Assembly (NCBI RefSeq): GCF_902805515.1
Contig: NZ_CADCTE010000066.1
Coordinates: forward strand, 18,114 to 82,113
Origin: an uncultured Arthrobacter sp.
GTDB taxonomy: Bacteria > Actinomycetota > Actinomycetes > Actinomycetales > Micrococcaceae
DNA length: 64,000 nucleotides
Reading direction: 5' to 3'
Positions 16,999-38,965 of the stretch are shown here, in pieces. Each line of letters starts with the position of its first letter. The first letter of the stretch is position 1. The notes beneath the pieces were generated by a model. It had not been told where the DNA came from. It was given only the letters and a program-made list of their open reading frames with translations, and did not search any database. The position numbers and the translations under genes are program-made.

Positions 16999-17007
16999 TT
17001 GTCCACA
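16999..17007 (+). promoter_or_regulatory. DnaA-box-type 9-mer upstream of the FHA-FtsK gene
   Basis: TTGTCCACA matches the actinobacterial TT(A/G)TCCACA consensus; candidate -10 TATCCT at 17046-17051. Function is inferred. Confidence 0.5.
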
Positions 17008-17082: not shown

Positions 17083-20000
17083 ATGCAGCTTCACCTTTCC
17101 GTGGTGGCGGGCCCCGGAGCCCCTGCCGCCACCGCGTCACACCTCCCCTGCGAGCTCGTTGTCAATCTCCAGCGGCCGATGTCCGGAGCGGACCTGGCCG
17201 GGCACCTCACCCTCCGCTTCGGGGACCTCTGCCTCTCGGTCGCGGGCATCCCCCTTGCCGCACTCGAACCGGGCGTCCCTCCCCTGGTCAACGGGGCCGT
17301 CCTCGTTGCCGGGAGCGGCCGTGCCGGTCCTGGGCCCTCGCCGGCACGTTCCGCCCTCATGCTTGTCGTGCACTCCGGACCGGATGCCGGGCTCATCTTC
17401 CCCTTAATGCGGGGTTCGTACTCGATCGGCCGGTCGGGCTGCGACATTTCGCTGCGCGATCCGGCGCTGTCCCGGCGCCACGCGGTGCTGGCTGTCGGAG
17501 AGGACCGCGTCCTGCTGCGCGATGCGGGCTCGGCGAACGGCACGTGGGTGGACGGGAACCGGATTACCGAGGCACCGATTTCTTCCTCCTCCTCGCTCGT
17601 TATGGGCGGCTCGCGGTGCGCCCTCGCCCTCACCGGAGCCTGCCGCCCGGAATTCCGCCCAGGGGACCTCGGGGAACCCCTGGACATCACCGCCGAGCCC
17701 GTGTCGGAGCGCGAGCGCTTCCTCACGCCGACGGTCCTGCTGCCGGTGGTGGGCGGGGCGGTCCTGGCGCTGGCCCTGAAGATGTGGCTCCTGCTCGCCT
17801 TCGCCGCGGTCGCCTCGCTGACCGGGTTGCTGTCGATCTGGGCCGTGCGTCGACGCCGGCGGCGGTTCGAGGCCGCCGTCCGGAGCGCCGCCGGGGCCGA
17901 TGCGAAGCGACGCTGCGCGGCGGTGTTGGATGCCGGGTCGGTCGCCCTCCGGGCCTACGGGCGCGGCCCGGAAGACCGGTGGACCGACCCGGGCACGGCC
18001 TCCCCGTCCGCGGCAGATCAGACTTCCCGGACCGCGAATATCCGTTTGGGCGAGGCCGACCAGCAGGCGAACCTTCGACTTACCCGCCCGGGACCGGAAT
18101 GGACGCCGCCCATCCTCAAGCGGATGCCCGTGGTGCTCCCGTTCCGACCGGCGTCCGAACGCCCCTTCCGCGCCCGGATCCAGCTGCACGGCCCCCGGGA
18201 GGACGTGCTTGGCATGGGCCGGCTCATCCTGCTCCAGTTCTCAGCAGTACTCGGATCCGACGCGGGAGTGATCTGCCGCGGCCTGCCGTCCGAACTGCCC
18301 ACCGCGGCGCGGTTCCTGCCGGGGGTCCGCCTCGTGTCCACGCCCGCCGCGCTGGAGGCGGTGATCCGTGAAGGGCCCGGCCCGGTGCTGATTGAGTTTT
18401 CGGCGGCTCCCGGGCCCGTTCCGGCAGGCGAGTGGGCCGAGGCAATTACCATCTCGGTGCGGCCGGGCCGGGCCACCGTGGTCCGTGGCTCCGGCCGCCT
18501 CGGGTTCATTCCGGACCGTGTGGGTGCCCCGGCCTTCGAAGCCTCTGCCCGTGCCCTGGGTACAGCCTCGACCCGGACCCCACCGGGCGGGCGCCGGGTG
18601 CGGCCTCCCCCCTCATTCGAGGACGGGCTGCACCTTCCGGCTCCGCCTTCCGCTCGGGAACTGGGCGAGCAGTGGTGCGACGGCGCGGAAAAGGACAGCC
18701 TGGAAGCGCCGATTGGTGCTGCCCCGGGAGGTCCCCAGGTCTTCGATCTGGTCAGGCAGGGGCCCCACCTCCTGGTCGCCGGCACAACGGGGTCCGGAAA
18801 ATCACAGCTGCTGCGTTCCCTGGTCCTCGGCATCGCGGCCCGCTATCCACCCCCGCGGGTCAACTTCCTCCTCTTTGACTTCAAGGGAGGCTCGGGCCTC
18901 GGCCTGCTGAGCGGGCTGCCCCACTGCGTCGGGTTCCTGACGGACCTGTCGGCGGAGTCGGTGGAGCGCGCGCTCCGGTCGCTCCGGGCCGAGCTGCGCC
19001 GACGGGAGGAACTGTTCGCCGACCACTCCGTCCAGGACATCGCCGGGCTGTCGGCGTCGACGGCGGTGTCCCTCCCGCGGCTCGTGGTGGTGGTCGATGA
19101 ATTCCGCAGGCTGAGCGATGAAGTCCCAGGAGCCGCCGGGGACCTGATGAAGTGTGCGGCGCTGGGCCGGTCTCTCGGGGTCCATCTGGTCCTGGCGACC
19201 CAGCGGCCCACCGGCGCCGTCACTGCCGATCTCCGGACAAACATCACCGCGTCGATTGCACTTCGGGTCCAGAACGACATCGAATCCCTGGACCTCATCG
19301 GCTCGATCCAGGCCGCGGCCATCGCGGTGGGCCTGCCCGGTCGGGGCTTCCTGAAGGTCGGCTCCGGGGAGCCCAGGGAGTTCCAGGTGGCGTCGACGGC
19401 CGGGCCGCCCCCGGGACCGGGCCCCGTCCTGGAGCTGGCCGAGTGGCTTCAAGGAACGCGCACGGACGCGCCCGGTCCGGCGCCGGAGGAGGGTCCGGAC
19501 GCGGTTCGGGGGCTCGTTCAAAGGATCGCGGAAGCGGCCCTGGTGAGCCGCACCCCCGATCAGTACCGCCCGGTCCTCCCTCCGCTGCCGTCGGAGCTCC
19601 TTCCCGCGGGCCCCGGGGCGTCGGTGCCGGAGGCGCTCACCCTGGGACTGCTCGACCTTCCCGACCGGCAGGCCCAGCCTTTCCTGCGCTGGGCACCCGG
19701 CCGCTCCCACCTCGCCTTCATCGGTTCGGCCTCCTCCGGAGCAGCCGGAGCGCTCCGGCACACCCTCACGGAGTGCCTGCTGGTCCAGCCGGACACGCAC
19801 CTCTATATCCTCGATGGCGACTTCACGCTCGCCTCCGCCTCCGACGCACCCCAGACCGGAGCGTACGCCGCCGCCCACGAACCGGTCCGGGCGGAACGGA
19901 TCCTCTTCCGCCTCGCGGCAGTGGTCCTCGAACGGCTCTCGGCGCCCGCCGCACCCGGGACTCCCCCGATTCTCCTCGCGGTCTCGGGCTGGGGCCGGTG

Positions 20001-20985
20001 GGCGGGCACCTTCCGGTCCCGCCGGTTTTCCGCCGCCGAGGACCTGCTTCACGACATCGTCCGCGACGGTCCCGCCGCCGGGGTGTCGCTGGTGATCACC
20101 GGTGAAAGGGAGCTGACCGCTGCGCGCTTCGTCGGGCAGGTGCCGAACCGGGTCTACCTGCCCCTGGGAACGCCCCCGGAGGTGACCGCCGGCTGGCCCC
20201 GGCTGCCGGCGGTCGACCCGGTGCCGGGACGGGGAGTTGCCTTCGGTAGATTCGGCACGGCGCGGTTTGGCCCGGTCCTGCTCGACGACGGCGCCCCCGC
20301 CCAGCTGATCATTCGGCCGCGGGAGGGTGCAGCGGCGCCGCGGCCGCCGCGGCGGCGCCCCTTCCGGGTTGACCCGCTCCCGGTCCGCGTCCGGTCGACG
20401 GACCTCCAGGCGGCCACCGGAACCGGCGCGGCCTGCCGGATTCCCATCGGGGTCGGCGGCGACGAACTGGAGACTGTCTTCCTTGGGCTTGAAGCCGGGG
20501 GCCTCTGGGCCGCGGTGGGACCTCCGGCCTCGGGCAGATCGACCCTCCTGGCCCTGCTCGAGAACCAGGCCCCGGCCTGGCTGCACCGCCTGCGGCCCCG
20601 GGACGATCCGGCGGCTTACTGGCGGGCTTCAGGGAGCCGCCCTCCCCTGGTGACGGACCCGGCGCGGTGCCTGCTGCTGATCGACGACGCGGAGACCCTG
20701 CCCGACGCCCTCCACCCGATCCTTGAGGCATGCCTCGCGTCCGGCGCTCGGGCGGTGTTCACGGCGGGCCACCGGTTCCTGCTGACCCAGCGGCCACTCG
20801 CCCGGCTGGCCCGGGCTGCGGGCCGCGGAGTCGTCCTGGCACCGAGGTCCGAAACCGACGGCGAGGTCTTCGGGGTGCGGCTGGAGCCTTGGGACCGTGT
20901 CGGCCCACCCGGACGCGCGGTGGTGCTGGACTCGGGCCGGCAGCTGCCGGTGCAGCTTGCGCAGGGTCCCGAAGGCGGCCCATGA
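17083..20985 (+). CDS. FHA-domain FtsK/SpoIIIE ATPase, EssC/EccC-like architecture
   Basis: FHA (IGRSG..D.ALSRRHA..GSANGT), TM pair, ATPase 1 AGTTGSGKS/VVVVDEF, degenerate ATPase 2 (GSASSGAAG), ATPase 3 GPPASGRST/LLIDDAE. ATG 17083 with GGAG RBS preferred over 16846. Confidence 0.85.
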   Translation: MQLHLSVVAGPGAPAATASHLPCELVVNLQRPMSGADLAGHLTLRFGDLCLSVAGIPLAALEPGVPPLVNGAVLVAGSGRAGPGPSPARSALMLVVHSGPDAGLIFPLMRGSYSIGRSGCDISLRDPALSRRHAVLAVGEDRVLLRDAGSANGTWVDGNRITEAPISSSSSLVMGGSRCALALTGACRPEFRPGDLGEPLDITAEPVSERERFLTPTVLLPVVGGAVLALALKMWLLLAFAAVASLTGLLSIWAVRRRRRRFEAAVRSAAGADAKRRCAAVLDAGSVALRAYGRGPEDRWTDPGTASPSAADQTSRTANIRLGEADQQANLRLTRPGPEWTPPILKRMPVVLPFRPASERPFRARIQLHGPREDVLGMGRLILLQFSAVLGSDAGVICRGLPSELPTAARFLPGVRLVSTPAALEAVIREGPGPVLIEFSAAPGPVPAGEWAEAITISVRPGRATVVRGSGRLGFIPDRVGAPAFEASARALGTASTRTPPGGRRVRPPPSFEDGLHLPAPPSARELGEQWCDGAEKDSLEAPIGAAPGGPQVFDLVRQGPHLLVAGTTGSGKSQLLRSLVLGIAARYPPPRVNFLLFDFKGGSGLGLLSGLPHCVGFLTDLSAESVERALRSLRAELRRREELFADHSVQDIAGLSASTAVSLPRLVVVVDEFRRLSDEVPGAAGDLMKCAALGRSLGVHLVLATQRPTGAVTADLRTNITASIALRVQNDIESLDLIGSIQAAAIAVGLPGRGFLKVGSGEPREFQVASTAGPPPGPGPVLELAEWLQGTRTDAPGPAPEEGPDAVRGLVQRIAEAALVSRTPDQYRPVLPPLPSELLPAGPGASVPEALTLGLLDLPDRQAQPFLRWAPGRSHLAFIGSASSGAAGALRHTLTECLLVQPDTHLYILDGDFTLASASDAPQTGAYAAAHEPVRAERILFRLAAVVLERLSAPAAPGTPPILLAVSGWGRWAGTFRSRRFSAAEDLLHDIVRDGPAAGVSLVITGERELTAARFVGQVPNRVYLPLGTPPEVTAGWPRLPAVDPVPGRGVAFGRFGTARFGPVLLDDGAPAQLIIRPREGAAAPRPPRRRPFRVDPLPVRVRSTDLQAATGTGAACRIPIGVGGDELETVFLGLEAGGLWAAVGPPASGRSTLLALLENQAPAWLHRLRPRDDPAAYWRASGSRPPLVTDPARCLLLIDDAETLPDALHPILEACLASGARAVFTAGHRFLLTQRPLARLARAAGRGVVLAPRSETDGEVFGVRLEPWDRVGPPGRAVVLDSGRQLPVQLAQGPEGGP

Positions 20986-26500: not shown

Positions 26501-28362
26501 GGGCTGATGCCGGCCGGATACCTCAGGCCGAGGTCGTACAGGAAGTACTGCTGCCCGTCGGCGCGTTCGATTTCGAACGGCCTCTCGTCGAGGACCTCAA
26601 GTCCAAGGTTGTGGAGGAACGGCAGGATCTGGGTGAGGCTCTTCGGCTCCATGAGGTAGAGCTTGAGCCTCGCGTCCTCCTCGGCGCCGGGGCGCTGCGG
26701 GACGTAGACGTGCATGCCCGGGGCACCGGTGGAGCCGTCGAGGGCCTCGAAGCGGCTGACGTCCTCGAGGGCTTCCTCAACCTCGTAGTCCACCCGGTAG
26801 CCTGCCGGGAAGGCCTCCCCCCAGAGTCCGGACAGGCGCTCGGCCTCCTCGTGGTCGAAGCGGTCGCGGGCGACCTCGGCGATGCCCTCGGCCCAGGACC
26901 GGGCGGCCCGGACGAGCCGCTCCTCAAGTTCGGCGCTGTCGACCTGCGGGACCTCCCCGCCGCGGGCGAGCCGGATCCGGAAGAACAGCCTCGCGAGGGC
27001 CGATTCGCTGACGCGGGCCTCGAAGTCGATCGAGTCGGCGTGGAAGGTGGTGCGCAGCTCCTCCTCGATCCGGAGCCGGACGCTGGTGGTGTACCGGTCG
27101 CGGGGGAGGTACACCAGCGCCGACATGAACCGCCCGTAGATGTCGGGGCGGAGGAACAGCCGGGTGCGGCGGCGTTCCTGGAGGCGCAGGATGCCCATGG
27201 CCGTGCTGACCAGGTCCTCGGCCTCGATCTGGAACAGTTCGTCCCGCGGATAGGTCTCGGCGATGGAGAGCAGGTCCTTGCCGGAGTGCGAGTCGGAGGG
27301 GAACCCGCAGAGCCGGAGCATCTCGGTGACCTTGTCCCGGACGATCGGTACGTTCCGCACCGACCCCGTGTAGGCGCTGGTCGCGAAGAGCCCGATGAAG
27401 CGCCGCTCCCCGTTGACGTTGCCCTGCGCGTCGAAGCTCTTGACCCCGATGTAGTCGAGGTAGGCGGCGCGGTGGACGGTGGAGCGAGAGTTCGCCTTGG
27501 TGATCACCAGGGCGCGCTTCTCACGGGCCTTGGCGCGGCCCGCCGACGTGAGGTGCTGGATCCGCCGGTCTGCGTCGGTGTCGCGGAGCAGGCCGAGGCC
27601 GCTGCCGTGGCGGACGCAGAGGGCGTCGAGGCCGTCCTCGACGACGAGGTCGTATTCCTTGTAGCCCAGGAAGGTGAAGTTTCCGTCGTCGAGCCACCTC
27701 AGGAGTTCCTGGGCCTGGCGGAGGTCCGGGATGGAGGAGCCGCCGGCGACCCCGTCCAGTGAATCCGCGATGTTCTGGACCTGGGCGCGCATGGCGGGCC
27801 AGTCGTGCACGGCGGCCCGCACGTCGGCCAGGACCTTGTGAAGGCCGTCGATGAGCTTGCCGCGTGCTTCCTCGTCGGGAATCCGGTTGATCTCGATGGA
27901 CATCCACGATTCGATCGAGGAGGCCCCGGGGATCAGGTGGGAGATGTCGGGAAGCGCAGCCGTGTCTCCGCTTGAGGAGCCGGCGCTGGAGGGGACGCGC
28001 TGAAGACCGTTCAGGGCATGGGACGCTTCGTCGCGAGCCGCCACGAAGGTGGGATGGACCACCAGGTGGATGGCGCAGCCCTGCCGGACCAGTTCCGCGG
28101 TGACCGAATCGACAAGGAAGGGCATGTCATCGGTGACAATGGCGACGACGCTCGCCTCGCCCTGGTCAAAGACATCGACGACCGGCTCTCCGGCGGCGCG
28201 TACCTCGGCAAGCCGGCGGTGGGTCAGCGCGCGGTCACGCAGCGCTGATCCGCTGTAGGCTTCGGCGTCCTCCCCTGCGAGGTGTTCATAGTAGTGCTCA
28301 ATGAAGTCCTCAAGCGACGTGTCTGAACTGGACTGATCCGTGACGCTGGATCCAGACGACAT
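23545..28362 (-). CDS. gdhB: Large NAD-specific glutamate dehydrogenase (~1600 aa)
   Basis: VEGVHLRFGEIARGGLRWSDRREDFRTEVLGLVKAQ, VAADKGTASFSD, GVGDMSGDVFGNGML, NTDAIDNSAGV. Confidence 0.95.
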   Translation of the reverse strand: MSSGSSVTDQSSSDTSLEDFIEHYYEHLAGEDAEAYSGSALRDRALTHRRLAEVRAAGEPVVDVFDQGEASVVAIVTDDMPFLVDSVTAELVRQGCAIHLVVHPTFVAARDEASHALNGLQRVPSSAGSSSGDTAALPDISHLIPGASSIESWMSIEINRIPDEEARGKLIDGLHKVLADVRAAVHDWPAMRAQVQNIADSLDGVAGGSSIPDLRQAQELLRWLDDGNFTFLGYKEYDLVVEDGLDALCVRHGSGLGLLRDTDADRRIQHLTSAGRAKAREKRALVITKANSRSTVHRAAYLDYIGVKSFDAQGNVNGERRFIGLFATSAYTGSVRNVPIVRDKVTEMLRLCGFPSDSHSGKDLLSIAETYPRDELFQIEAEDLVSTAMGILRLQERRRTRLFLRPDIYGRFMSALVYLPRDRYTTSVRLRIEEELRTTFHADSIDFEARVSESALARLFFRIRLARGGEVPQVDSAELEERLVRAARSWAEGIAEVARDRFDHEEAERLSGLWGEAFPAGYRVDYEVEEALEDVSRFEALDGSTGAPGMHVYVPQRPGAEEDARLKLYLMEPKSLTQILPFLHNLGLEVLDERPFEIERADGQQYFLYDLGLRYPAGISPLETADLLKEAFAAAVVGASESDTFDRLVVREHFSWRQVLILRSYAKYMRQIGNANSYGFVADTLLRNAGVARALVALFEARFDPDLTSDREAAAAAARSDLAAGLERVVTLDADRVLRSYANLIDATLRTNYFQNKRHVSFKLDTPSIEGAPFPRPKFEIWVYSPQVEGVHLRFGEIARGGLRWSDRREDFRTEVLGLVKAQTVKNAVIVPTGAKGGFFPKQLPDPTVDRAAWLNEGTESYRTFIRALLDITDNLVTVDGRETVVTPDRVVRHDGDDSYLVVAADKGTASFSDIANGLSAEYGFWLGDAFASGGSVGYDHKAMGITARGAWESVKRHFSEFDLDTQTQDFTVVGVGDMSGDVFGNGMLLSEHIKLVAAFDHRHIFLDPNPDPAASHAERRRLFELPRSSWEDYDASLVSEGGGIYPRQSKSVPVSDQVRAVLGLEDSVTTLSPPELLKAILSAPVDLLYNGGIGTYVKSSAETNAEVGDRANDAIRINGSDLRVKVVGEGGNLGMTQRGRIEAALNGVVLNTDAIDNSAGVDCSDHEVNIKIFVDRMVKLGRMTPEERPGFLHSMTDEVSELVLRDNIDQNVLLLNDRQRIIEWSPSFERLMDWLEAHADLDRGIEALPTTKALRARIETGKGLTSPELSVLAAYAKIELAKALTNSDLPDDPWFSGTLRRYFPHQLVERFGDLLDTHPLRREIIATTVANDMVNMGGITFAFRVMEETSVSESAVARAFVALREIYELDSIVTALEALPADFPTEHWCEVHLDLRRLLDRAVRWFVNHVEASTPVEESIAAFKPLIDPLRSRLSSFVRGGDLDRVRKWTAVAQERGLPESIVTTWAEQFESFALLDIAFSTRRVDEPVEDIARVYYAVYDYFDVDNLLERITHLPRKDRWQALARAALRDDLYSTVADITVAVLKASERLRGGEPMARLHEWEAQHADQLARARNMFDEVNRLEQDDISSLSVALRLLRSIVR

Positions 28363-28409: not shown

Positions 28410-29753
28410 TTACCTTGGAAGCCTAACGGGCATCCACGAAAACTTCACTTCGTTGGAGCTCCATCCAATGCGGCGGCGTTGGCGTTGTTCAACCGTCACA
28501 TCGGCGAGTCCCGCAATCGCCCTCCGCAGGGCCGAGGACGGGGCAGTTTCGACGAGCGCCGAGCCCGCCAGCAGCGCCTCGTCCGCCGCCGGAAAATCGG
28601 CAGGGAGGAAGGCCGAAATGGCCGCGCCGGGCCCGAACCGCTCCCAGGCCTCCCTCAGCTGGTCCTCCGGCGAGCGCCCGACGGAACCGGCGCGGACCTT
28701 GTTGAGCACCACCCTCGGCTCGGCCGAGGGCACCGCCTCGGCCAGGACGGCCAGCGAACGCACGAGGCGCGGTACGCCGACGGCGTCGGCGGCACCGACC
28801 GCGATAACGGAGTCGGCCAGTTCAAGGCAGCGCAGTGCCGCGCCGTTGCGGCGGGGAGCGGCGGTGTCGAAGCTGAGCTCCTCGTCCGCTTCGAGGCAGA
28901 ACCCGCAGTCGACGATGGTCACGGCGGCGCATGCACGGGCGTACTCGAGGACCCGGGCCAGGGCCGCGGGACGCACCTCGGGCCACCGGTCGGGCCGCGT
29001 CAGGCCGGTGAGGACTCCCAGCCTGCCGCCGCCCACGGCGACGGTTGAGGCCACCCGGCGGAGCCCGTCCGGGTCGAGCGTCCCCTGGTCTGCGAGCCGG
29101 CAGGCCTGGGCAAGTCCGGCGGCCTCATCGAGCAGACCCAGGAACGCCGCCACACTGGCCCCGTAGGTGTCGGCATCGACAAGCAGGACGGTGGAGCCGG
29201 CCGCCGCCAGCTCCGCCGCCATATTCACGGCCACCGTGGTCCGCCCCGGGGCCCCGATCGGCCCCCACACCGCGGTGACGGTGCCGCCGCCGGGTTCGCC
29301 GGGTTCGCCGGCGGGCGGCTCGGCGGTTTGCCCGGGGGGCGGCAGGGAAGCGGCCGGGTCGGCGTAGGCGCTGGTGCCCAGACTTCCTGCGGCGCCGGAC
29401 AGGCTTTCGACGGCCGCCGTGACGAGTTCGGCCAGCGCGTCCGGCGCGATGCCGGGAGGCGCACGGCGTACCCCGGGCGCCACGACCCCCGCGGCCGGTT
29501 CGTCCTCTCCCGCGAGCACCACGACGGCGATCCCGGTGTCGCGCAGCCGCTCCAGGAGCGACACCGTCAGCGCTCCGGTTCCGGGTGAGAGGATGGCCGC
29601 GCGGGCCAGTCCCGCCTGGCCGGCTGCCAGCAGTTCGGGCACCCCCTCGCAGCGGCGCACCACGGTCACCGGGCCGTGGAGTTCCTCCAGCCCGGTAACG
29701 TACTCCCCCGCGGCCGGTCCCACGGTGACGACGGGGATGACCGGGCCGCTCAC
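28410..29753 (-). CDS. CpaE/TadZ-like MinD/ParA-family ATPase with pseudo-receiver N-terminus
   Basis: Deviant P-loop WGPIGAPGRTT, VLLVDADTYG, IVDCGF; receiver-like N-terminal region without an obvious phospho-Asp; coupled to the SAF gene. Confidence 0.75.
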   Translation of the reverse strand: MSGPVIPVVTVGPAAGEYVTGLEELHGPVTVVRRCEGVPELLAAGQAGLARAAILSPGTGALTVSLLERLRDTGIAVVVLAGEDEPAAGVVAPGVRRAPPGIAPDALAELVTAAVESLSGAAGSLGTSAYADPAASLPPPGQTAEPPAGEPGEPGGGTVTAVWGPIGAPGRTTVAVNMAAELAAAGSTVLLVDADTYGASVAAFLGLLDEAAGLAQACRLADQGTLDPDGLRRVASTVAVGGGRLGVLTGLTRPDRWPEVRPAALARVLEYARACAAVTIVDCGFCLEADEELSFDTAAPRRNGAALRCLELADSVIAVGAADAVGVPRLVRSLAVLAEAVPSAEPRVVLNKVRAGSVGRSPEDQLREAWERFGPGAAISAFLPADFPAADEALLAGSALVETAPSSALRRAIAGLADVTVEQRQRRRIGWSSNEVKFSWMPVRLPR

Positions 29754-30418
29754 GGACTCCCCCGCGGGTTCAGCACCACGGCGATCTTCGCACCGTTCGA
29801 CAGGGCGTTCAGCAGGGCAGGCATTGCCTCGTCGGCCACCAGCACGTAGACCCGGGACGGGGATTCCGTTCCCAGGGCCGATTCGTTGACCGCGATCTCG
29901 GAGACCTCGGCGCCCTCAAGCAGGAGCCGGGGCTGCTCGAACCGGGTGCCCTGCCCGGTGGCCGCCTCCGGCAGGGCGACCCAGACATCGACCCGCACCC
30001 CGGGCTCCGTGCCCGCGGGGAGGGGGTCCTCGATGGGAAGCCCGACCGGTTTCCTGTCCAGTTCGTCGGGGCGGCCGACGGCGGCGGCCGGAACCAGTTC
30101 GCCCGGGCGGACGAGCCGGGTTACCACCGCGTTCTTTGGAAGGCCGGAGGAGGCCCGAAGGTACTTCTCCTCCGAGCCTCCCAGCCGGACGGCGACCGTG
30201 GTGAGGTCACCTGACTCCAGGCGGGTGCCGACGGGAAGTTCGGTACGGGCAGCGAGGACATCGGTGGTGCGGTCGAGGCTGCCGACCAGCGCCGTAACCC
30301 CTGCGGTGGAGGCCAGCACGAGCAGGAGACCGATGATGAGCCGTGGATCCCGCCAGGACGGCCTGCCGATCCGCGGCGCGGTGGCGTGACCGTCCGTCCG
30401 GCTGGCGTTACCGCTCAT
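29750..30418 (-). CDS. Membrane-anchored SAF-domain protein (CpaB/RcpC-like)
   Basis: RDPRLIIGLLLV TM, VLAARTELPVGTRLESGDL SAF motif, GVRVDVWV RcpC-like C-terminus; ATG 30418 with GGAGG RBS. Confidence 0.75.
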   Translation of the reverse strand: MSGNASRTDGHATAPRIGRPSWRDPRLIIGLLLVLASTAGVTALVGSLDRTTDVLAARTELPVGTRLESGDLTTVAVRLGGSEEKYLRASSGLPKNAVVTRLVRPGELVPAAAVGRPDELDRKPVGLPIEDPLPAGTEPGVRVDVWVALPEAATGQGTRFEQPRLLLEGAEVSEIAVNESALGTESPSRVYVLVADEAMPALLNALSNGAKIAVVLNPRGSP

Positions 30419-30538
30419 GGAGCTTCCTCCGCACGCTTCGGAGCACTCTTCGGCACCGGCGGATGGGCACCGGCGCTCCTGCCATTGTTGTGCAGGCGGC
30501 ACACAAAATAAACAGAAGGTTTCCGGCTCGCCCGAATC

Positions 30539-30547
30539 TGTGGACAA
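30539..30547 (-). promoter_or_regulatory. DnaA-box-type 9-mer in the divergent SAF / HTH promoter region
   Basis: + strand TGTGGACAA = TTGTCCACA on the SAF coding strand. Function is inferred. Confidence 0.5.
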
Positions 30548-30661
30548 CCGGCACCTCCGGGGCCGTGGAGTGACAGAATTGAGGCAGGTCCAGCCGGGTG
30601 CCCACGGTTGGAACGGAGGCGCTCGTGGAGGCAAGGCCACGGCTGAGGAAGAGGTGTTCGT

Positions 30662-30889
30662 GTGGCTGAGAAGCGGTTCCTGACCCTCGCCGACGTTGCG
30701 GAGGTGCTCAATATCAGCTCCTCCCAGACCTACGCCCTGGTTCGCTCGGGGGAGCTTCCGGCGATCCAGGTGGGCGGGCGCGGTCAGTGGCGCGTCGAGG
30801 CACGGGTCCTCGAGGACTACATCGCCGATGCCTACCGGAGATCCGCAGCCGCCCTGCGCGGAAGCGCCGACCCGGTCAACAACGCCTGA
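30662..30889 (+). CDS. Stand-alone HTH_17 / excisionase-like (BldC-like) DNA-binding protein
   Basis: FLTLADVAEVLNISSSQTYALVRSGELPAIQVGGRGQWRV, 75 aa; no integrase nearby. Confidence 0.85.
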   Translation: MAEKRFLTLADVAEVLNISSSQTYALVRSGELPAIQVGGRGQWRVEARVLEDYIADAYRRSAAALRGSADPVNNA

Positions 30890-30901
30890 GCGTCTATGGT
30901 G

Positions 30902-31453
30902 TCAGGGGCGGGAGGCCACCGCGGCGACCGCGGCGAAGGGCAGCGCCACCACCGCCCGGACATTGGCCGGCCTGCGGTGCTCGCCCGGCGGAACGAGTGC
31001 CACCTCGAGGAAGTCGGCTCCGACCCGATCCAGCGTGCCCTCGGAGACCGTGACCGGTGACCCTGCATAGACGCTGATGTGCGCCCGGTCGCGGGCCAGC
31101 GCGCGGTAGGCCGAGGCGAGGCCCAGGCGGGCGTGGATCCCCGCCGGGCGCGGGGCGACGGCACGTCCCAGACCTTCGATACTCAGGATCGCGGCGAAGG
31201 GCACCAGGACGGAGCGCTGCCCCTCTGCGAGTACGAGCCATTCGGCGCCGACGTAGGCCAGGCTGCCGGAGAAGCCCTGCCCGTTCCCGGTCCGGACCTT
31301 CAGCCCCTGGGCGATGGAACCGGCCAGCCGGTCCGCGAGGGCCACCCGCGCCTGCTCCATCCTGAGCAGGTCTGCCGCCGCCGCTTCCTCCGAGGCCGCC
31401 CGCGCGGCCGCCAGCTGGGCCTCGAGATCACCGAACAGGGCTTCCCACCGCAT
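30902..31453 (-). CDS. Conserved hypothetical protein with two internal Sm/Hfq-like repeats
   Basis: MRWEALFGDLEAQ start (ATG 31453); internal duplication GSLAYVGAEWLVL..VPFAAI / GTLDRVGADFLEV..LPFAAV. The ORF is well supported; the fold is inferred by eye. Confidence 0.7.
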   Translation of the reverse strand: MRWEALFGDLEAQLAAARAASEEAAAADLLRMEQARVALADRLAGSIAQGLKVRTGNGQGFSGSLAYVGAEWLVLAEGQRSVLVPFAAILSIEGLGRAVAPRPAGIHARLGLASAYRALARDRAHISVYAGSPVTVSEGTLDRVGADFLEVALVPPGEHRRPANVRAVVALPFAAVAAVASRP

Positions 31454-31504
31454 GGTCCAACGGTAGGCAGGCGGGTAGAGGGGGTCAACGAATTCGAGTA
31501 GCCG

Positions 31505-31550
31505 TAAACGTATACAAGCGGTATCAAACGCGCTCAAATGGATGCAAATG
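31505..31550 (+). repeat. Five hexamer direct repeats at exact 10-bp periodicity
   Basis: TAAACG (31505), CAAGCG (31515), CAAACG (31525), CAAATG (31535), CAAATG (31545) in a divergent promoter region. Confidence 0.8.
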
Positions 31551-31564
31551 CAAGGGAGGAGACC

Positions 31565-32311
31565 ATGGAAAGGCGCTTGGGGGTTCTCTACCCTGCGGCC
31601 CTCCTCGGCCTCGGGGCGGTCCTCGTCCTCTCGGGACTGGGGCTTGCCTCCGGTGCCTCGCGGGCGCCGGAGACCGGTATCGGCGCCGTCGTCTCCGTTG
31701 CCGGCCTGGGCCTGCTGCTCTGGTGGACCGGGGCCCTGGCGCTCGCGCTCGGCGCCGAGGTCCTCAAGCGGAGGGGCCGCGCCGCCGCCGCCGCCAGGAT
31801 GGCGGCCCTCACTCCAGGCTTCATGCGCCGGCTGGCCGCCGTGCTGCTCGGGGCGAATCTCCTGGCCGCACCGTGCGCAGCCTCGGCGCCGCCGTCGGCA
31901 TCGATCCCACCCGCGGTCCCGGCACCCACGGTCGTGGTGCCGGCTGTCGCGGCCCTGACCGTTCCTGCAGACCGCGGCGAGGACCCTCAGCCCGGGCAGT
32001 CCCACCCGTCCGTTCGGGAACCGCGGGTCAGCCCGGACTGGAAACCGCTGCCGCTCCCCTGCGATCCCGGCCTGCTGGCCCGGCCGCCAAGCCAGCAGGG
32101 CGCGGCACCGGATGCGGACAGCGCCCGGGTGGTTGTCCGGAGGGGTGACTCGCTGTGGTCGATCGCCGCGGCGCGGCTCGGTCCCCTCGCCTCGGACGCC
32201 GACATCGCGGCAAGCTGGCCGCGCTGGTACGCGAGGAACGCCTCACTGATCGGCCCGGATCCGGACCTCCTGACACCGGGCCAGACACTGGCTGCCCCGG
32301 ACCCGCCCTGA
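31565..32311 (+). CDS. Membrane-anchored LysM peptidoglycan-binding protein
   Basis: N-terminal TM helices, Pro-rich linker, VVVRRGDSLWSIAAARL...IGPDPDLLTPGQTL LysM; ATG 31565 with GGGAGG RBS. Confidence 0.85.
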   Translation: MERRLGVLYPAALLGLGAVLVLSGLGLASGASRAPETGIGAVVSVAGLGLLLWWTGALALALGAEVLKRRGRAAAAARMAALTPGFMRRLAAVLLGANLLAAPCAASAPPSASIPPAVPAPTVVVPAVAALTVPADRGEDPQPGQSHPSVREPRVSPDWKPLPLPCDPGLLARPPSQQGAAPDADSARVVVRRGDSLWSIAAARLGPLASDADIAASWPRWYARNASLIGPDPDLLTPGQTLAAPDPP

Positions 32312-32361
32312 GCGTCCCAGCCGGCAGCAGGACCGCCCATCCCAGCAGTGAAAGGACCACC

Positions 32362-32865
32362 ATGGCCACCCTCACCCAGCAACGAAACCAGCAACGAATC
32401 CAGGAACACCCGGCCCGTGCCGCCGCACCGTGGGCCCTCCCGTCCTGCGCGGACCCACCGGAGCAGCCGCCGCCGGAGGCGCTGCTGCCGGAAGCGGAGG
32501 AGCGCGTCGGCGGCATCGCGCGCGCCGTGGCGCAGGGAGCCGTCGAGGTCCTCGGGGGCAGCCGCCCCGCCTCCCAGATGTCCCGGTGGCTCGATCCGGC
32601 CAGCTACGAGAAGCTGCACCTGCGCGCCTGCCTCATGCAGAAGGTCGCAGCCTCCGAAGCCACCGGCTCCTGCCCGGGCGGCGCCCTGGTGGACCGGCGG
32701 GCCTACCGCTGCGTGACGGTCCGCAGCGCGCGGCTGTGCCGCGTCTCCGAAACCGCCTTCGAGGCCGCCCTGGTCGTTCTGGACCGCAGGCGGGCACGCG
32801 CCGTCGCCCTGCGGGTCGAACACCGCCGCGGCGACTGGAAGGTCACCGCCCTGGAGATCGGCTGA
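32362..32865 (+). CDS. Rv3235 family protein
   Basis: AVEVLGGSRPASQMSRWL, RARAVALRVE..GDWKVTALEIG; next to secA as in other actinobacteria. Confidence 0.85.
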   Translation: MATLTQQRNQQRIQEHPARAAAPWALPSCADPPEQPPPEALLPEAEERVGGIARAVAQGAVEVLGGSRPASQMSRWLDPASYEKLHLRACLMQKVAASEATGSCPGGALVDRRAYRCVTVRSARLCRVSETAFEAALVVLDRRRARAVALRVEHRRGDWKVTALEIG

Positions 32866-32876
32866 GCTGCTTTTGG

Positions 32877-35609
<2,733 letters not shown>

Positions 35610-35699: not shown

Positions 35700-36911
35700 T
35701 CAACGCCGCCCCAGCGCCGCGGAAAGCGGCGCCGCGAGGTCTCCCACGGGTTCGACGACGACCTGCTGCAGGCCGAGCCATCCGGCCATGGTACCCAGTT
35801 CAGCTGAGAGTTCGTCGGCGGTGTCCGCGGGCGCGCCCGGTTCGGCGTAGCTTCCGCGCACCAGCAGACGCCCGGTGGCCCGGTCGGCCTTGAGGTCCAC
35901 CCGGGCCGCCATCGTCTCTCCGAGCAGGAAGGGCAGGACGTAATACCCGTAGCGGCGTGCCGCCGCAGGAGTATAGATTTCGAGCCGGTAGTGGAAGCCG
36001 AAGAGCTCCTCGAGCCGCGGGCGGTCGAAGACGAGGGAGTCGAAAGGGCTCAGCAGCGCCCGCCCGGCGGCGCGGCGCGGGATTGCGGCGTCGCGGTGGA
36101 GGTAGGCCGGCCGGTTCCAGGAGCCCACCTGGGCGGGGGTGAGGACCCCCCTCCCCTCGAGGATCCGCACCGCCTCCGCGGTGTCGCGGACGGGGGTGCG
36201 GAAGTAGTCGGCGAAACTGCGCACTGTGCCGATGCCCAGCGCGGCGGCGGCGCGTTCGGTCAGGACAAGGATCGCCTCGCGCGGGTCGGCCTCCTCGGCT
36301 GCGAGGTCGGAGGTGGGCAGCACCCGGGCCGAGGGTGCGTACCGGCGTTCGAAGGATGAGGTCCGGCCGGCCGAGCTGATTTCCCCGCGGGCGAAGAGGT
36401 CCTCGAGGACGCGTTTGACCGCGCTCCAGTTCCATCCCCAGTTATCGGTGCTGCGCTGCTCCGAGTGGCCGAGGCGTTCCTGCACCTGTCCGGCGGTCAG
36501 CGCCCGGCTCGAGGCAAGGAGCGTGAGGATCCGTTCCTCCAGGGATGAGCGGAGCACCGGGTCCATCCCCGACGCTCCGCTCCAGGTGCGCCGCTGCCAG
36601 GGGCGCAGGTGCGGGAACAGGGCAGGGTCGATGAAGCTGGCCTCGTGCGCCCAGTACTCCGTCAGCCGGCGCGGATGCCTGCCGGCGAACCGATCGAGGA
36701 CCGCCGGGTCGTACGCGCCCAGCCGCGAGAAGACCGGAAGGTAGTGGGAGCGCACCAGCACGTTGACCGAATCGATCTGGAGCAGCTGCAGCCTATCGAG
36801 GATCCGGCCCACGGACCGCGCGGAGGGCGGAGCCGTGGGCCGGGTCTTGGCGAGTCCCTGGGCCAGCAGGGCTGCCCTGCGGGCCTGGGACAGGGTGAGG
36901 TGAACGGTCAT
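35700..36911 (-). CDS. YcaQ/AlkZ-like winged-helix (HTH_42) protein, putative crosslink-repair DNA glycosylase
   Basis: LQIDSVNVLVRSHYLPVFSRLG, EYWAHEAS, LSPFDSL, YRLEIYTP..RRYGYYVLPFL. Confidence 0.85.
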   Translation of the reverse strand: MTVHLTLSQARRAALLAQGLAKTRPTAPPSARSVGRILDRLQLLQIDSVNVLVRSHYLPVFSRLGAYDPAVLDRFAGRHPRRLTEYWAHEASFIDPALFPHLRPWQRRTWSGASGMDPVLRSSLEERILTLLASSRALTAGQVQERLGHSEQRSTDNWGWNWSAVKRVLEDLFARGEISSAGRTSSFERRYAPSARVLPTSDLAAEEADPREAILVLTERAAAALGIGTVRSFADYFRTPVRDTAEAVRILEGRGVLTPAQVGSWNRPAYLHRDAAIPRRAAGRALLSPFDSLVFDRPRLEELFGFHYRLEIYTPAAARRYGYYVLPFLLGETMAARVDLKADRATGRLLVRGSYAEPGAPADTADELSAELGTMAGWLGLQQVVVEPVGDLAAPLSAALGRR

Positions 36912-38876: not shown

Positions 38877-38965
38877 TGTGGATAAGGGGCGGTGTGGATA
38901 AGGGGCTGTGTGGATAAGGGGCTGTGGGGATAAGGGCTGTGTGGATAAGGGTGCAGTGTGGAACC
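38877..38965 (-). repeat. Tandem array of DnaA-box 9-mers (about 16-bp period)
   Basis: + strand TGTGGATAA at 38877, 38893, 38909, 38940; TGGGGATAA at 38925; TGTGGAACC at 38957. Reads TTATCCACA on the comF strand. Confidence 0.85.

What the first reader, a model, noticed from the sequence alone, without database searches (positions are those of the whole stretch)
28410..32865. Candidate undescribed system: six-gene module (CpaE-like, CpaB-like, BldC-like HTH, Sm-like, LysM, Rv3235) next to secA
Seen: three short transcription units in alternating orientation, all uncharacterised, with two distinct cis-elements in their divergent promoters (a DnaA-type box and a 10-bp phased array). Established: CpaB/RcpC and CpaE/TadZ are Tad/Flp pilus accessory and localisation proteins, and Flp pili are required for natural transformation in Micrococcus luteus. 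No pilin, TadA or TadB/C is present here. Inference: a regulatory and cell-wall-anchoring arm of a split Tad/competence apparatus, co-regulated with comF and the FHA-FtsK gene through the shared TTRTCCACA motif.
Basis: partly seen in the sequence, partly recalled or inferred. Interest (0 to 1): 0.8.

Follow-up and report, generated by a model that had tools for sequence, protein, structure and literature searches.

The report
Detached head of Tad-pilus competence locus
This gene block in a soil Arthrobacter is a copy of a widely conserved actinobacterial cluster whose core three genes are the split-off front end and regulator of a Tad pilus operon already tied to DNA uptake in Micrococcus luteus, and it shares a DnaA-box-like promoter motif with every other competence gene in the genome.

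Summary
The same order and orientation recurs next to secA in most sampled families of class Actinomycetia.

The central inference holds. In another class of the phylum, SAF and the CpaE-like gene run straight into tadA-tadB-tadC-tadE. In this genome the orthologous tad-1 operon lies 41 kb downstream, on the same strand.

The system is not undescribed. The HTH_17 / SAF / CpaE-like trio matches M. luteus "cluster 13" (Torasso Kasem 2021), where mutations change comEA/EC promoter activity and cut transformation 10^4- to 10^5-fold.

Perfect TTRTCCACA boxes sit upstream of comEA-comEC, comF, yraN-comM-dprA, tad-1, ssd-tad-2, FHA-FtsK and the SAF/HTH_17 promoters. They also sit at oriC, so the binding protein (HTH_17 or DnaA) is unresolved.

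The six genes are not one unit:
- DUF6459 travels with secA.
- The tandem Sm/Hfq-fold protein and the LysM-like protein form their own pair, with a conserved 10-nt-phased CAAAC array that occurs only once in the genome.

Verdict: a new member of a known kind, with new regulatory leads.

The parts
28410..29753 (-). CpaE/TadZ-like protein with a receiver-like N-domain, a disordered linker and a MinD/ParA-fold C-domain. Its Walker A is GPIGAPGRTT (Arg in place of the catalytic Lys, and no signature Lys).
   Evidence: Pfam ParA/CbiA hits are weak. TIGR03815 scores 23 bits against a 154-bit cut-off. The AF2 model has pLDDT 85, and Foldseek matches ParA 3ea0 at TMt 0.85 and MinD 1ion at 0.80. The GP(T/A)GAPGR(T/S)T motif is conserved in about 45 orthologues. 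The orthologue lies directly upstream of tadA in loci L030-L034.
29750..30418 (-). SAF-domain membrane protein in the CpaB/RcpC position. It has an N-terminal TM helix and is translationally coupled to the CpaE-like gene by a 4-bp overlap.
   Evidence: SAF scores 19.2 bits (cut-off 21) and TIGR03177 CpaB 18.8 bits (cut-off 71). It is single-copy in the genome. Its position is conserved in 48 of 58 named loci. The M. luteus counterpart Mlut_14650 is needed for transformation (PMC8467076).
30539..30547 (-). DnaA-type box TTGTCCACA in the divergent SAF / HTH_17 promoter region.
   Evidence: A TGTGGA/TCCACA hexamer occurs in 61 of 70 orthologous HTH_17 upstream regions. TCCACAG is present in 56% of these regions against 5% of background. 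Where the conserved -10 motif is detected (about 30 of the 70 loci), the box starts 30-33 nt upstream of it. The box is also present in 3 of 4 loci from another class.
30570..30578 (+). Extended -10-like element TGACAGAAT of the HTH_17 promoter (family consensus TG(G/C)CA(G/C)ACT).
   Evidence: Its spacing to the box is conserved across loci. The generic sigma-70 scan did not detect it.
30662..30889 (+). HTH_17 (excisionase/MerR-like) small DNA-binding protein, counterpart of M. luteus Mlut_14660.
   Evidence: Pfam HTH_17 scores 48 bits and TIGR01764 38 bits. In alignment A2 the GGRGQWRVE stretch is invariant (alignment A2). The M. luteus genetics are.
30902..31453 (-). Conserved 183-aa protein made of a long N-terminal helix and two tandem Sm/Hfq-like barrels.
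   Evidence: No Pfam or NCBIfam hit. There are 93 homologues. The AF2 model has pLDDT 93.2. Foldseek returns Hfq chains at TMt 0.64-0.77 and rmsd about 2.5-3 Å.
31505..31550 (+). Five YAARYG hexamers (TAAACG, CAAGCG, CAAACG, CAAATG, CAAATG) phased at 10 nt. They lie between the Sm-like gene and the RBS of the LysM-like gene.
   Evidence: 2-6 phased (G/T)CAAAC copies lie upstream of the LysM-like gene in most orthologous loci, usually downstream of a TTGAC-N17-TAnnnN promoter. The array is unique in the genome.
31565..32311 (+). Membrane protein with a C-terminal LysM-like domain. The likely start is the ATG at 31565, behind the GGGAGGAG Shine-Dalgarno sequence; the longest ORF starts at 31538.
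   Evidence: Pfam LysM scores 19.9 bits against a 20.9-bit cut-off. The C-terminal region is conserved and found in place in 38 of 58 named loci.
32362..32865 (+). DUF6459 (Rv3235 family) protein. It is linked to secA rather than to the Tad genes.
   Evidence: PF20060 scores 90 bits. The family is present in 190 of 201 class-level genomes. It remains beside secA in G249 (L017), which lacks the rest of the block.
32877..35609 (-). secA, the conserved anchor gene of the block (context).
   Evidence: Translation and synteny.
16999..17007 (+). TTGTCCACA box upstream of the FHA-FtsK gene (context, same motif).
17083..20985 (+). FHA-FtsK/SpoIIIE-family ATPase, likely counterpart of M. luteus Mlut_07490, which lies next to tad-1.
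   Evidence: Pfam FHA and FtsK_SpoIIIE. The orthologue is adjacent and divergent to tadA in G224, and lies between gdh and tadA in G234. The M. luteus G327E mutation in Mlut_07490 was isolated as an R (repressed com promoter) mutant.
38877..38948 (-). Tandem array of four perfect TTATCCACA boxes (plus degenerate copies, about 16-bp period) upstream of the comF-like gene at 37871-38827.
   Evidence: Co-oriented boxes lie upstream of comF in 11 of 36 named loci, mostly Micrococcaceae.

Best explanation
The block is the Arthrobacter copy of an ancient actinobacterial locus. It has three parts.

**(1) Tad/competence core: SAF protein, CpaE/TadZ-like protein and HTH_17.**
- The SAF protein and the CpaE-like protein are the original first two genes (cpaB/cpaE positions) of the tad-1 Flp-pilus operon (tadA-tadB-tadC-tadE-x-tadG).
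- In this genome about 41 kb of other genes have been inserted between them and tadA: gdh, pdtaS, FHA-FtsK and polysaccharide genes.
- Inferred roles: the SAF protein is held by one TM helix outside the membrane and serves as the envelope-side collar of the machine. The CpaE-like protein, with an Arg-for-Lys Walker A, acts as a nucleotide-binding scaffold or localisation hub for the TadA/TadB/TadC platform rather than as a working ATPase.
- The divergently transcribed HTH_17 protein is the counterpart of M. luteus Mlut_14660, a negative regulator of com gene expression.
- Its promoter carries a TGTCCACA box centred near -44. The same box lies upstream of every competence and tad unit in this genome. 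Most likely this defines one competence regulon. Whether HTH_17 or DnaA reads the box is not settled.

**(2) Tandem Sm/Hfq-fold protein and LysM-like membrane protein.**
- They form a separate conserved divergent pair.
- Their private control element is a 10-nt-phased CAAAC array lying over the start of the LysM-like transcript.
- They are probably envelope accessories of the same machinery. This is not shown.

**(3) DUF6459.** It belongs with secA.

**What is shown:** anatomy, conservation, ancestral contiguity, motif distribution, predicted folds.
**What is taken from the literature:** the competence phenotype in M. luteus.
**What is inferred:** protein roles, the identity of the box binder, co-regulation.
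For: **Synteny**
- The same order and orientation occurs in 15-17 of 20 families of the class.
- In the 58 named loci with enough flank, ParA-like is in place in 53, SAF in 48, Unk186 in 40 and LysM in 38.

**Ancestral contiguity with tad-1**
- SAF -> CpaE-like -> tadA -> tadB -> tadC -> tadE are contiguous in four to five genomes of other classes. Their TadA is 57-62% identical to the own tad-1 TadA.
- The orthologous tad-1 lies 5.8-90 kb downstream and co-oriented in 11-12 of 17 genomes.
- The own tad-1 has no cpaB or cpaE of its own. The own tad-2 has a bona fide Ssd at 236 bits.

**CpaE-like architecture**
- Receiver-like N-domain plus MinD fold.
- Conserved GPxGAPGR[ST]T Walker A.

**M. 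luteus genetics (PMC8467076)**
- SAF knockout causes a 10^4-fold loss of transformation.
- HTH_17 SNPs de-repress the comEA/EC promoter.
- An FtsK-family gene next to tad-1 also affects com expression.

**The box**
- 61 of 70 HTH_17 promoters carry it; in the loci where the -10 motif is detected its spacing to the -10 is fixed.
- In the own genome 21 of 29 perfect boxes are non-coding, against 6.5 expected.
- Boxes lie upstream of comEA/EC, comF, yraN-comM-dprA, tad-1, ssd-tad-2, FHA-FtsK and SAF/HTH_17.
- The comEA boxes are conserved in 14-15 of 21 genomes. The tadA box near -104 is conserved in 3 of 6 tadA upstream regions examined, the own genome included.

**Other**
- Sm/Hfq fold of the 183-aa protein.
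- The CAAAC array is conserved and unique in the genome.
- Low-level in-situ transcripts cover SAF and the CpaE-like gene.
Against: - The SAF and CpaE-like proteins fail the curated CpaB, Ssd/CpaE and SAF HMM cut-offs. The Walker A lacks both lysines expected of TadZ/MinD proteins.
- Orthology to the M. luteus genes rests on identical domain content and arrangement, and on synteny in Kocuria and Rothia. It does not rest on a direct sequence comparison.
- The box is indistinguishable in its 9-mer core from the DnaA boxes at this genome's own oriC, dnaA and dnaB promoters.
- G249 has comEA boxes but no HTH_17 orthologue.
- There are no expression data showing co-regulation.
- Nothing ties the Sm-like and LysM-like genes to pili except neighbourhood. 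In G281 and Nocardioides they are separated from the core.
- The block is absent from the Streptomyces-, Mycobacterium- and Corynebacterium-like genomes sampled.
Confidence: 0.75

Rival explanations
1. The TGTCCACA boxes are ordinary DnaA boxes. On this reading DnaA itself, not HTH_17, ties competence and tad gene transcription to the replication-initiation state. HTH_17 would then act elsewhere, for example on the phased CAAAC direct repeats, as BldC does on direct repeats.
For: - The 9-mer equals the DnaA-box consensus and occurs at the own oriC, dnaA promoter and dnaB promoter.
- G249 keeps paired boxes upstream of comEA but has no HTH_17 orthologue.
- BldC-type HTH_17 proteins bind short phased direct repeats head-to-tail (PMC5859096). 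The CAAAC array is such a repeat, about 600 bp from the HTH_17 gene.
Against: - In this genome the base after the box is G in 10 of 12 oriC-type boxes but in only 1 of 10 competence boxes. Competence boxes in Micrococcaceae share an extended flank, TCCACATAG(C/G)G, which DnaA would not be expected to read.
- M. luteus HTH_17 point mutations directly change comEA/EC promoter activity.
- The CAAAC period is 10 nt; BldC repeats are 9 bp.
Confidence: 0.3
2. Only HTH_17, SAF and the CpaE-like protein belong to the Tad/competence system. The Sm-like protein, the LysM-like protein and DUF6459 would be an unrelated secA-linked envelope or secretion set that merely sits beside it.
For: - DUF6459 is near-universal in the class (190 of 201 genomes) and stays next to secA where the rest is missing.
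- In G281 Unk186-LysM-DUF6459-secA stay together while HTH_17 lies about 100 kb away.
- Nocardioides keeps HTH_17-SAF-CpaE-gdh without the secA side.
- The CAAAC array is a private element, not shared with com or tad promoters.
Against: - Unk186 and LysM remain adjacent to HTH_17-SAF-CpaE-tadABC even in another class of the phylum and in most named loci.
- An occasional TGTCCACA box occurs in the Unk186-LysM spacer.
- For DUF6459 this rival is the preferred reading and is already part of the best explanation.
Confidence: 0.4
3. The SAF/CpaE-like pair is a MinD/Ssd-type cell-division or positioning system with no role in pili, or a decaying relic of a lost pilus operon.
For: - The ATPase domain is MinD/ParA-like.
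- Ssd-type relatives have been described as septum-site proteins in mycobacteria (PMC10482377).
- The catalytic lysine is replaced.
Against: - The pair is contiguous with tadABC in other classes and linked to tad-1 in most genomes.
- The Arg substitution is conserved, not random decay.
- The ORFs are intact, have coding-type GC3 and are transcribed in situ.
- The M. luteus SAF knockout loses transformation.
Confidence: 0.05

Closest known systems
Micrococcus luteus 'cluster 13': Mlut_14660 (HTH_17) divergent from Mlut_14650 (SAF, RcpC/CpaB-like) - Mlut_14640 (TadZ/CpaE-like) - Mlut_14630 (PAS histidine kinase); Torasso Kasem et al. 2021, Genes 12:1307
   Same: - Same domain set and the same divergent arrangement, within the same family (Micrococcaceae).
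- Kocuria and Microbacteriaceae loci show the exact M. luteus layout, with pdtaS directly after the CpaE-like gene.
- An FtsK-family gene associated with tad-1 is also present.
   Different: - Here NAD-GDH lies between the CpaE-like gene and pdtaS.
- The M. luteus study did not treat the Sm-like, LysM-like or DUF6459 neighbours.
- A term search of that paper found no report of a shared promoter box or of the ancestral contiguity with tadABC.
- No experiments exist for this organism, which is a biocrust MAG.
Tad/Flp pilus assembly proteins CpaB/RcpC and CpaE/TadZ (Caulobacter, Aggregatibacter)
   Same: - Gene position at the head of a tadA-tadB-tadC operon (in other-class relatives).
- A TM helix plus SAF domain for the first protein.
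- A receiver-like N-domain plus MinD-like domain for the second.
   Different: - Both score far below the family HMM cut-offs.
- The Walker A is GPxGAPGR[ST]T and lacks both lysines.
- The host is monoderm and has no secretin.
- In this genome the pair is 41 kb from tadA.
Actinobacterial Ssd (TIGR03815, Rv3660c type) CpaE homologue of the helicase-neighbourhood tad locus
   Same: It is also a CpaE-like protein with a degenerate P-loop, encoded just upstream of a TadA.
   Different: It is a distinct family. The module protein scores 23 bits against TIGR03815, whereas the genome's own tad-2 Ssd scores 236 bits.
BldC family of small MerR-like HTH_17 regulators (Streptomyces)
   Same: It is a small single-domain HTH_17 protein. 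Direct-repeat DNA elements lie nearby (the comF box array and the CAAAC array).
   Different: The profile search against PDB chains returned only a weak Xis Gp37 hit and no BldC entry. Repeat periods here are 10 and about 16 bp, not 9. Its DNA targets are unknown.
DnaA boxes and non-origin DnaA-box clusters (e.g. E. coli datA, B. subtilis DBCs)
   Same: The 9-mer TT(A/G)TCCACA is identical, including a tandem co-oriented array away from oriC.
   Different: Here the boxes mark a functionally coherent set of competence and pilus promoters at fixed promoter positions, and carry distinct 3' flanks.
Hfq / Sm proteins
   Same: Predicted fold: an alpha helix plus a five-stranded bent barrel, present twice in tandem (TM 0.64-0.77 to Hfq chains).
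   Different: No Hfq or LSM HMM match. The two barrels are fused in one chain behind a long helix. Oligomeric state and RNA binding are unknown.

Membership tests
CpaE/TadZ (Tad pilus localisation ATPase-like protein) | Two-domain architecture: an atypical receiver-like N-domain plus a MinD/ParA-type C-domain. | tested here: met
   AF2 model with pLDDT 85. Residues 1-124 alternate beta and alpha elements (5 strands), with no acceptor Asp after beta3. Residues 156-420 match ParA/MinD structures at TMt 0.80-0.85. The N-domain fold is read from the secondary-structure pattern, not from a structural hit.
CpaE/TadZ (Tad pilus localisation ATPase-like protein) | Score above the curated HMM cut-off for a CpaE-type model. 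| tested here: not met
   TIGR03815 scores 23.2 bits against a 154.45-bit cut-off. Only generic ParA/CbiA Pfam hits were found.
CpaE/TadZ (Tad pilus localisation ATPase-like protein) | Deviant Walker A with lysines (KGGxxK[ST]). | tested here: not met
   The motif is GPIGAPGRTT. The GP(T/A)GAPGR(T/S)T form is conserved in about 45 orthologues, and R171 is invariant in A3.
CpaE/TadZ (Tad pilus localisation ATPase-like protein) | Encoded in a tad operon immediately upstream of tadA. | tested here: met
   It is contiguous with tadA in L030-L034, from other classes. In this genome it lies 41 kb upstream and co-oriented.
CpaB/RcpC | Score above the TIGR03177 / SAF+RcpC HMM cut-offs. | tested here: not met
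   TIGR03177 scores 18.8 bits against 71. SAF scores 19.2 against 21. There is no RcpC-domain hit and no sequence match in the PDB.
CpaB/RcpC | First gene of the tad operon, membrane-anchored and extracytoplasmic. | tested here: met
   It sits upstream of cpaE-tadA in the contiguous loci. An N-terminal hydrophobic helix (RLIIGLLLVLASTAGVTALV) is visible in the translation. Topology is not tested.
M. luteus cluster 13 (competence-influencing locus) | An HTH_17 gene divergent from a SAF - CpaE-like operon. | tested here: met
   for this window. One search shows the same layout in Kocuria, Rothia and many orders. The layout is described in PMC8467076.
M. luteus cluster 13 (competence-influencing locus) | Direct sequence orthology to Mlut_14640/50/60. 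| not tested
Orthology is inferred from family-level synteny.
M. luteus cluster 13 (competence-influencing locus) | Effect on com expression or transformation. | not testable with these tools
   Genetics in a cultured strain would be needed.
HTH_17 / excisionase-type (BldC-like) DNA-binding proteins | Pfam HTH_17 above cut-off, in a small single-domain protein. | tested here: met
   PF12728 scores 48.1 bits (cut-off 27) and TIGR01764 scores 38 bits (cut-off 28.8). The protein is 75 aa.
HTH_17 / excisionase-type (BldC-like) DNA-binding proteins | Head-to-tail binding to direct repeats. | not testable with these tools
   Candidate repeats exist (the comF array and the CAAAC array). There are no binding data.
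Hfq/Sm | Sm fold (N-terminal helix plus a five-stranded bent barrel). | tested here: met
   AF2 model with pLDDT 93.2 shows two helix-plus-five-strand units. Foldseek returns Hfq chains at TMt 0.64-0.77, rmsd about 2.5-3 Å and E 0.008-0.05.
Hfq/Sm | Sequence-family membership (Hfq/LSM HMM, Sm2 motif), ring assembly, RNA binding. | tested here: not met
   No Pfam or NCBIfam hit at E <= 0.01. Ring assembly and RNA binding cannot be tested here.
LysM domain proteins | Pfam LysM above cut-off. | tested here: inconclusive
   19.9 bits against 20.9, with only a 14-residue stretch aligned. The C-terminal motif is conserved in orthologues.
DUF6459 (Rv3235 family) | PF20060 above cut-off. | tested here: met
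   90.1 bits against a 27-bit cut-off.
DnaA box | 9-mer TT(A/G)TCCACA, as used at the organism's own oriC. | tested here: met
DnaA box | Bound by DnaA. | not testable with these tools
   The flank differs between oriC-type and competence-type boxes (G at position 10 in 10/12 versus 1/10). This leaves the binder open.

The most novel reading that the evidence does not exclude
The TGTCCACA box would be the long-sought 'com box' of Actinomycetota. The HTH_17 protein would read this DnaA-box look-alike at every competence and Tad promoter, and possibly at oriC, which could explain why it could not be deleted in M. luteus. DNA uptake would thereby be coupled to replication-initiation state. In parallel, the neighbouring tandem Sm/Hfq-fold protein would be an RNA-binding regulator that recognises the CAAAC-repeat leader of the LysM-like mRNA. 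That would be an Hfq-like post-transcriptional regulator in a phylum thought to lack Hfq.
Probability: 0.2. Interest if true: 0.85.

Novelty: new member of a known kind. Interest (0 to 1): 0.55.

Why it matters
How competence is regulated in high-GC Gram-positive bacteria is still open. M. luteus genetics pointed to this locus but gave no operator, no regulon and no evolutionary rationale. Three points from this analysis bear on that.

1. The SAF/CpaE-like pair is the ancestral head of the tad-1 operon. This accounts for the earlier statement that M. luteus lacks a TadZ, and for why actinobacterial tad loci seemed to lack cpaB.
2. One short motif marks comEA/EC, comF, dprA, both tad operons, FtsK and the regulator's own promoter. 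This turns the regulon question into a direct binding experiment: HTH_17 versus DnaA.
3. A conserved tandem Sm-fold protein sits beside a genome-unique phased repeat. That gives a concrete candidate for a new RNA- or DNA-level control element.

None of this is established function in this uncultured Arthrobacter.

Tried and rejected
- **The search for related loci with the Unk186 alignment** failed for lack of a conserved stretch. The HTH_17 alignment was used instead.
- **Phylogenetic profiling against TadA (PF00437) and ComEC (PF03772)** was uninformative. All 20 test genomes have both. Gene linkage proved informative instead.
- **Rv3213c/MSMEG_1927 as the mycobacterial orthologue of the CpaE-like gene** was dropped. 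The Mycobacterium-, Streptomyces- and Corynebacterium-like genomes sampled lack HTH_17 and Unk186 orthologues.
- **Sequence searches of PDB**:
  - The SAF protein gave nothing.
  - The CpaE-like protein matched only the P-loop region of FleN/MinD-type proteins.
  - The HTH_17 profile hit only a phage Xis at E = 0.28, not BldC.
- **The generic sigma-70/terminator scan** of 30380-31620 found nothing.
- **Metatranscriptome contigs** (two biocrust runs) give only depth 2-6 fragments over the SAF, CpaE-like and DUF6459 genes. That is too thin for operon structure or co-expression.
- **A literature search for DnaA box + comEA + Actinobacteria** returned no paper.
- **A genome-wide search for further phased CAAAC arrays** found none, so the array is not a regulon motif.

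Full report
**What is there**

The window is high-GC actinobacterial DNA. The closest named relatives are Arthrobacter crusticola and A. zhaoguopingii. The genome is a MAG from a biocrust metagenome.

Between NAD-glutamate dehydrogenase (23545-28362, -) and secA (32877-35609, -) lie six genes:
- A 447-aa P-loop protein, 28410-29753(-). It overlaps the stop of the next gene by 4 bp.
- A SAF-domain membrane protein, 29750-30418(-).
- A 75-aa HTH_17 protein, 30662-30889(+).
- A 183-aa protein with no family hit, 30902-31453(-).
- A LysM-like membrane protein, 31538/31565-32311(+).
- DUF6459, 32362-32865(+).

Beyond secA come an AlkZ-like gene, hpf, a comF-like gene, lpqB, mtrB and mtrA. Upstream lie pdtaS and an FHA-FtsK gene.

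Several fall below curated cut-offs: SAF 19.2 against 21, CpaB 18.8 against 71, Ssd/CpaE 23 against 154, and LysM 19.9 against 20.9. There are four alternating transcription units, not three.

**Predicted folds**

The 183-aa protein gives a confident AF2 model (pLDDT 93.2). It has a long N-terminal helix followed by two units of helix plus five strands. Foldseek against PDB returns dozens of Hfq chains at TM 0.64-0.77 normalised to the target and rmsd about 2.5-3 Å. 'Sm-like' is therefore supported as a fold, not as a family.

The 447-aa protein (pLDDT 85) has three regions:
- A receiver-like alternating beta/alpha N-domain (residues 1-124).
- A disordered linker.
- A MinD/ParA-fold C-domain (TMt 0.80-0.85 to 3ea0 and 1ion).

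Its Walker A is GPIGAPGRTT. The Arg-for-Lys form GP(T/A)GAPGR(T/S)T is conserved in about 45 orthologues from many orders. This looks like a selected nucleotide-binding scaffold rather than decay.

**Conservation of the block**

DUF6459 occurs in 190 of 201 class-level genomes. I fetched 20-kb regions around it from 20 genomes of different families. In 15-17 of them the order and orientation were identical: CpaE-like <- SAF <- | -> HTH_17 | <- Sm-like | -> LysM -> DUF6459 | <- secA.

A scan with an HTH_17 alignment then gave 80 named loci. They came from:
- Arthrobacter, Kocuria and Rothia.
- Nocardioides.
- Jiangellales, Frankiales, Streptosporangiales and Pseudonocardiales.
- Acidothermus, Quadrisphaera and Jatrophihabitans.
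- Nanopelagicales and Microbacteriaceae.

Of the 58 loci with enough flank:

| Gene in the expected place | Loci |
|---|---|
| CpaE-like | 53 |
| SAF | 48 |
| Sm-like | 40 |
| LysM-like | 38 |
| DUF6459 | 36 |

The block is absent from the Streptomyces-, Mycobacterium- and Corynebacterium-like genomes sampled.

**The link to Tad**

The genome has two tad loci.
- tad-1 is at C66:1220-5823, 41 kb from the module, on the same contig and the same strand. It encodes TadA(T2SSE)-TadB-TadC(T2SSF)-TadE-x-TadG-like. No cpaB or cpaE lies upstream of it.
- tad-2 (C115) is preceded by a genuine Ssd-type CpaE homologue (TIGR03815, 236 bits).

All 20 test genomes carry TadA, so presence/absence says nothing. 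Linkage does. A TadA of the tad-1 type lies 5.8-90 kb downstream of, and co-oriented with, the CpaE-like gene in 11-12 of 17 genomes.

In genomes of other classes of the phylum the locus is uninterrupted: LysM | Sm-like | HTH_17 | SAF -> CpaE-like -> tadA -> tadB -> tadC -> tadE. Their TadA is 57-62% identical to the own tad-1 TadA.

The SAF/CpaE-like pair is therefore the ancestral head of the tad-1 operon. In Arthrobacter it has been separated by insertion of gdh, pdtaS, FHA-FtsK and polysaccharide genes.

In G281 HTH_17 lies about 100 kb from the Unk186-LysM-DUF6459-secA side and about 59 kb from a co-oriented tad-1-type TadA. The SAF and CpaE-like genes were not looked for there.

**What is already known**

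Torasso Kasem et al. 2021 (PMC8467076) mapped most of their com-deregulated M. luteus mutants to 'cluster 13'. This is Mlut_14660 (HTH_17) lying divergent from Mlut_14650 (SAF, RcpC/CpaB-like), Mlut_14640 (TadZ/CpaE-like) and Mlut_14630 (PAS kinase).

Their main results:
- A SAF knockout lost 10^4-fold in transformation. The G27D mutant lost more than 10^5-fold.
- HTH_17 point mutations de-repressed the comEA/EC promoter.
- HTH_17 could not be deleted.
- An FtsK/SpoIIIE gene next to tad-1 (Mlut_07490) also affected com expression.

[quoted passage not shown] It stated that M. luteus lacks a TadZ.

Kocuria and Microbacteriaceae loci in my set have exactly the M. luteus layout, with pdtaS directly after the CpaE-like gene. 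The FHA-FtsK orthologue is adjacent and divergent to tadA in G224.

The system is not undescribed.

**The DnaA-type box**

TTRTCCACA occurs 6 times in the window against 0.23 expected.

Across 70 orthologous HTH_17 upstream regions:
- The top enriched 7-mers are TCCACAG (56% against 5% background) and ATCCACA (41% against 1.8%).
- 61 of 70 regions carry the TGTGGA/TCCACA hexamer.
- Where the conserved TG(G/C)CA(G/C)ACT -10 motif is detected (about 30 of the 70 loci), the box starts 30-33 nt upstream of it, placing the box near -44.
- Many loci have a second, inverted box facing SAF.
- The box is also present in 3 of 4 loci from another class.

In the own genome 21 of 29 perfect boxes are non-coding, against 6.5 expected. 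They lie upstream of the following:

| Unit | Position |
|---|---|
| comEA-comEC | C123:4437 |
| comF | four copies |
| yraN-comM-dprA | C136:23079 |
| tad-1 tadA | -104 |
| ssd-tad-2 | about -110 |
| FHA-FtsK | window 16999 |
| SAF/HTH_17 | window 30539 |
| oriC, dnaA, dnaB, lipB | also present |

Conservation elsewhere:
- Co-oriented YGTCCACAG boxes, often paired, precede comEA in 14-15 of 21 genomes.
- The tadA box near -104 recurs in 3 of 6 tadA upstream regions examined, the own genome included.
- comF boxes recur in 11 of 36 named loci, mostly Micrococcaceae.

This supports a competence/Tad regulon defined by the box. A term search of the M. luteus paper and one literature search found no report of such a shared box.

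**Who binds the box is open**

For DnaA:
- The core is identical to the own oriC boxes.
- G249 has comEA boxes but no HTH_17 orthologue.

For a dedicated factor such as HTH_17:
- The M. luteus genetics.
- The box lies in HTH_17's own promoter.
- In this genome the base after the box is G in 10 of 12 oriC-type boxes but in only 1 of 10 competence boxes.
- Micrococcaceae competence boxes share the flank TCCACATAG(C/G)G.

**The phased array**

The five hexamers at 31505-31550 are real. The array is conserved as 2-6 copies of (G/T)CAAAC at a 10-nt period upstream of the LysM-like gene in most orders of the class. It usually lies just downstream of a TTGAC-N17-TAnnnN promoter and before the Shine-Dalgarno sequence. 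It therefore overlaps the transcript start and leader.

It is the only such array in the genome. It was not seen in the other-class loci.

Two readings remain:
- It is a DNA operator for a BldC-like protein. BldC binds 9-bp direct repeats head-to-tail (PMC5859096).
- It is an RNA motif for the divergently encoded tandem Sm-fold protein.

Neither reading is tested.

**How the six genes divide**

- HTH_17, SAF and the CpaE-like gene form a Tad/competence core, with strong evidence.
- The Sm-like and LysM-like genes form a conserved pair with a private cis-element. They are probably associated with the core, by neighbourhood only.
- DUF6459 belongs with secA. It is near-universal and stays beside secA in G249, which lacks the rest.

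**Expression**

Two biocrust metatranscriptomes give near-identical contigs at depth 2-6 over the CpaE-like gene, the SAF gene and DUF6459. One extends past the SAF start to 30469. This shows in-situ transcription and nothing more.

An earlier agent working on another genome (e1-926803) reached a similar reading. I treat that as a lead, not as support. Its main claims were re-derived here independently.

**Verdict**

- New leads:
  - the ancestral contiguity with tadABC;
  - the box-defined regulon and its overlap with DnaA boxes;
  - the conserved Arg-Walker-A;
  - the Sm-fold protein with its CAAAC array.

Noticed in passing
window 38877-38948: Tandem array of four perfect TTATCCACA boxes plus two degenerate copies, at a period of about 16 bp, lying between lpqB and the comF-like gene. 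It is the densest box cluster in the genome outside the oriC region.
   Followed up: partly
own genome C144:68822-69043 (outside the window): A second non-origin cluster of five DnaA-type boxes in mixed orientation. It lies about 14 kb from dnaA/dnaN, just upstream of a gene at 69125-69994(-) that I did not identify.
   Followed up: no
own genome C66:5880-9400 (about 9-12 kb before the window start): A stretch of about 3.5 kb directly upstream of tad-1 tadA has atypical codon-position GC and no convincing ORF. It may be a decayed or foreign insertion at the place where cpaB/cpaE would be expected.
   Followed up: partly
own genome, all TTRTCCACA / T[GA]TCCACA boxes: The base following the box differs by class. 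It is G in 10 of 12 boxes at oriC, dnaA and the C144 cluster. It is T or C in 8 of 10 boxes at competence and tad promoters (A and G in the other two). comEA and yraN share the identical flank CCACATAGCG.
   Followed up: partly
own genome C128:24282-24446: A second HTH_17 paralogue, 44% identical over 57 aa. This parallels the second excisionase-family gene of M. luteus (Mlut_02150), which was also hit in the com screen.
   Followed up: no
window 23545-28362: A 1605-aa NAD-specific glutamate dehydrogenase lies between the CpaE-like gene and pdtaS. In Kocuria and Microbacteriaceae pdtaS follows the CpaE-like gene directly, so gdh marks a lineage-specific insertion point.
   Followed up: partly
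window 37003-37959 and 37871-38827: The longest hpf ORF overlaps the end of the comF-like gene by about 90 bp. Its S30AE domain starts only at residue 75, so the true hpf start is probably further downstream.
   Followed up: no
window 35700-36911: An AlkZ-like DNA glycosylase gene sits between secA and hpf. It is present at this position in many but not all orthologous loci.
   Followed up: no
own genome C97:4036 and C97:4764; C101:5504; C75:39469; C79:31343: Further non-coding boxes with the competence-type flank (CCACAT...) lie upstream of unidentified genes, of a gene I took by eye to be thioredoxin-like, and of a gene I read as lipB. These are possible additional regulon members.
   Followed up: no
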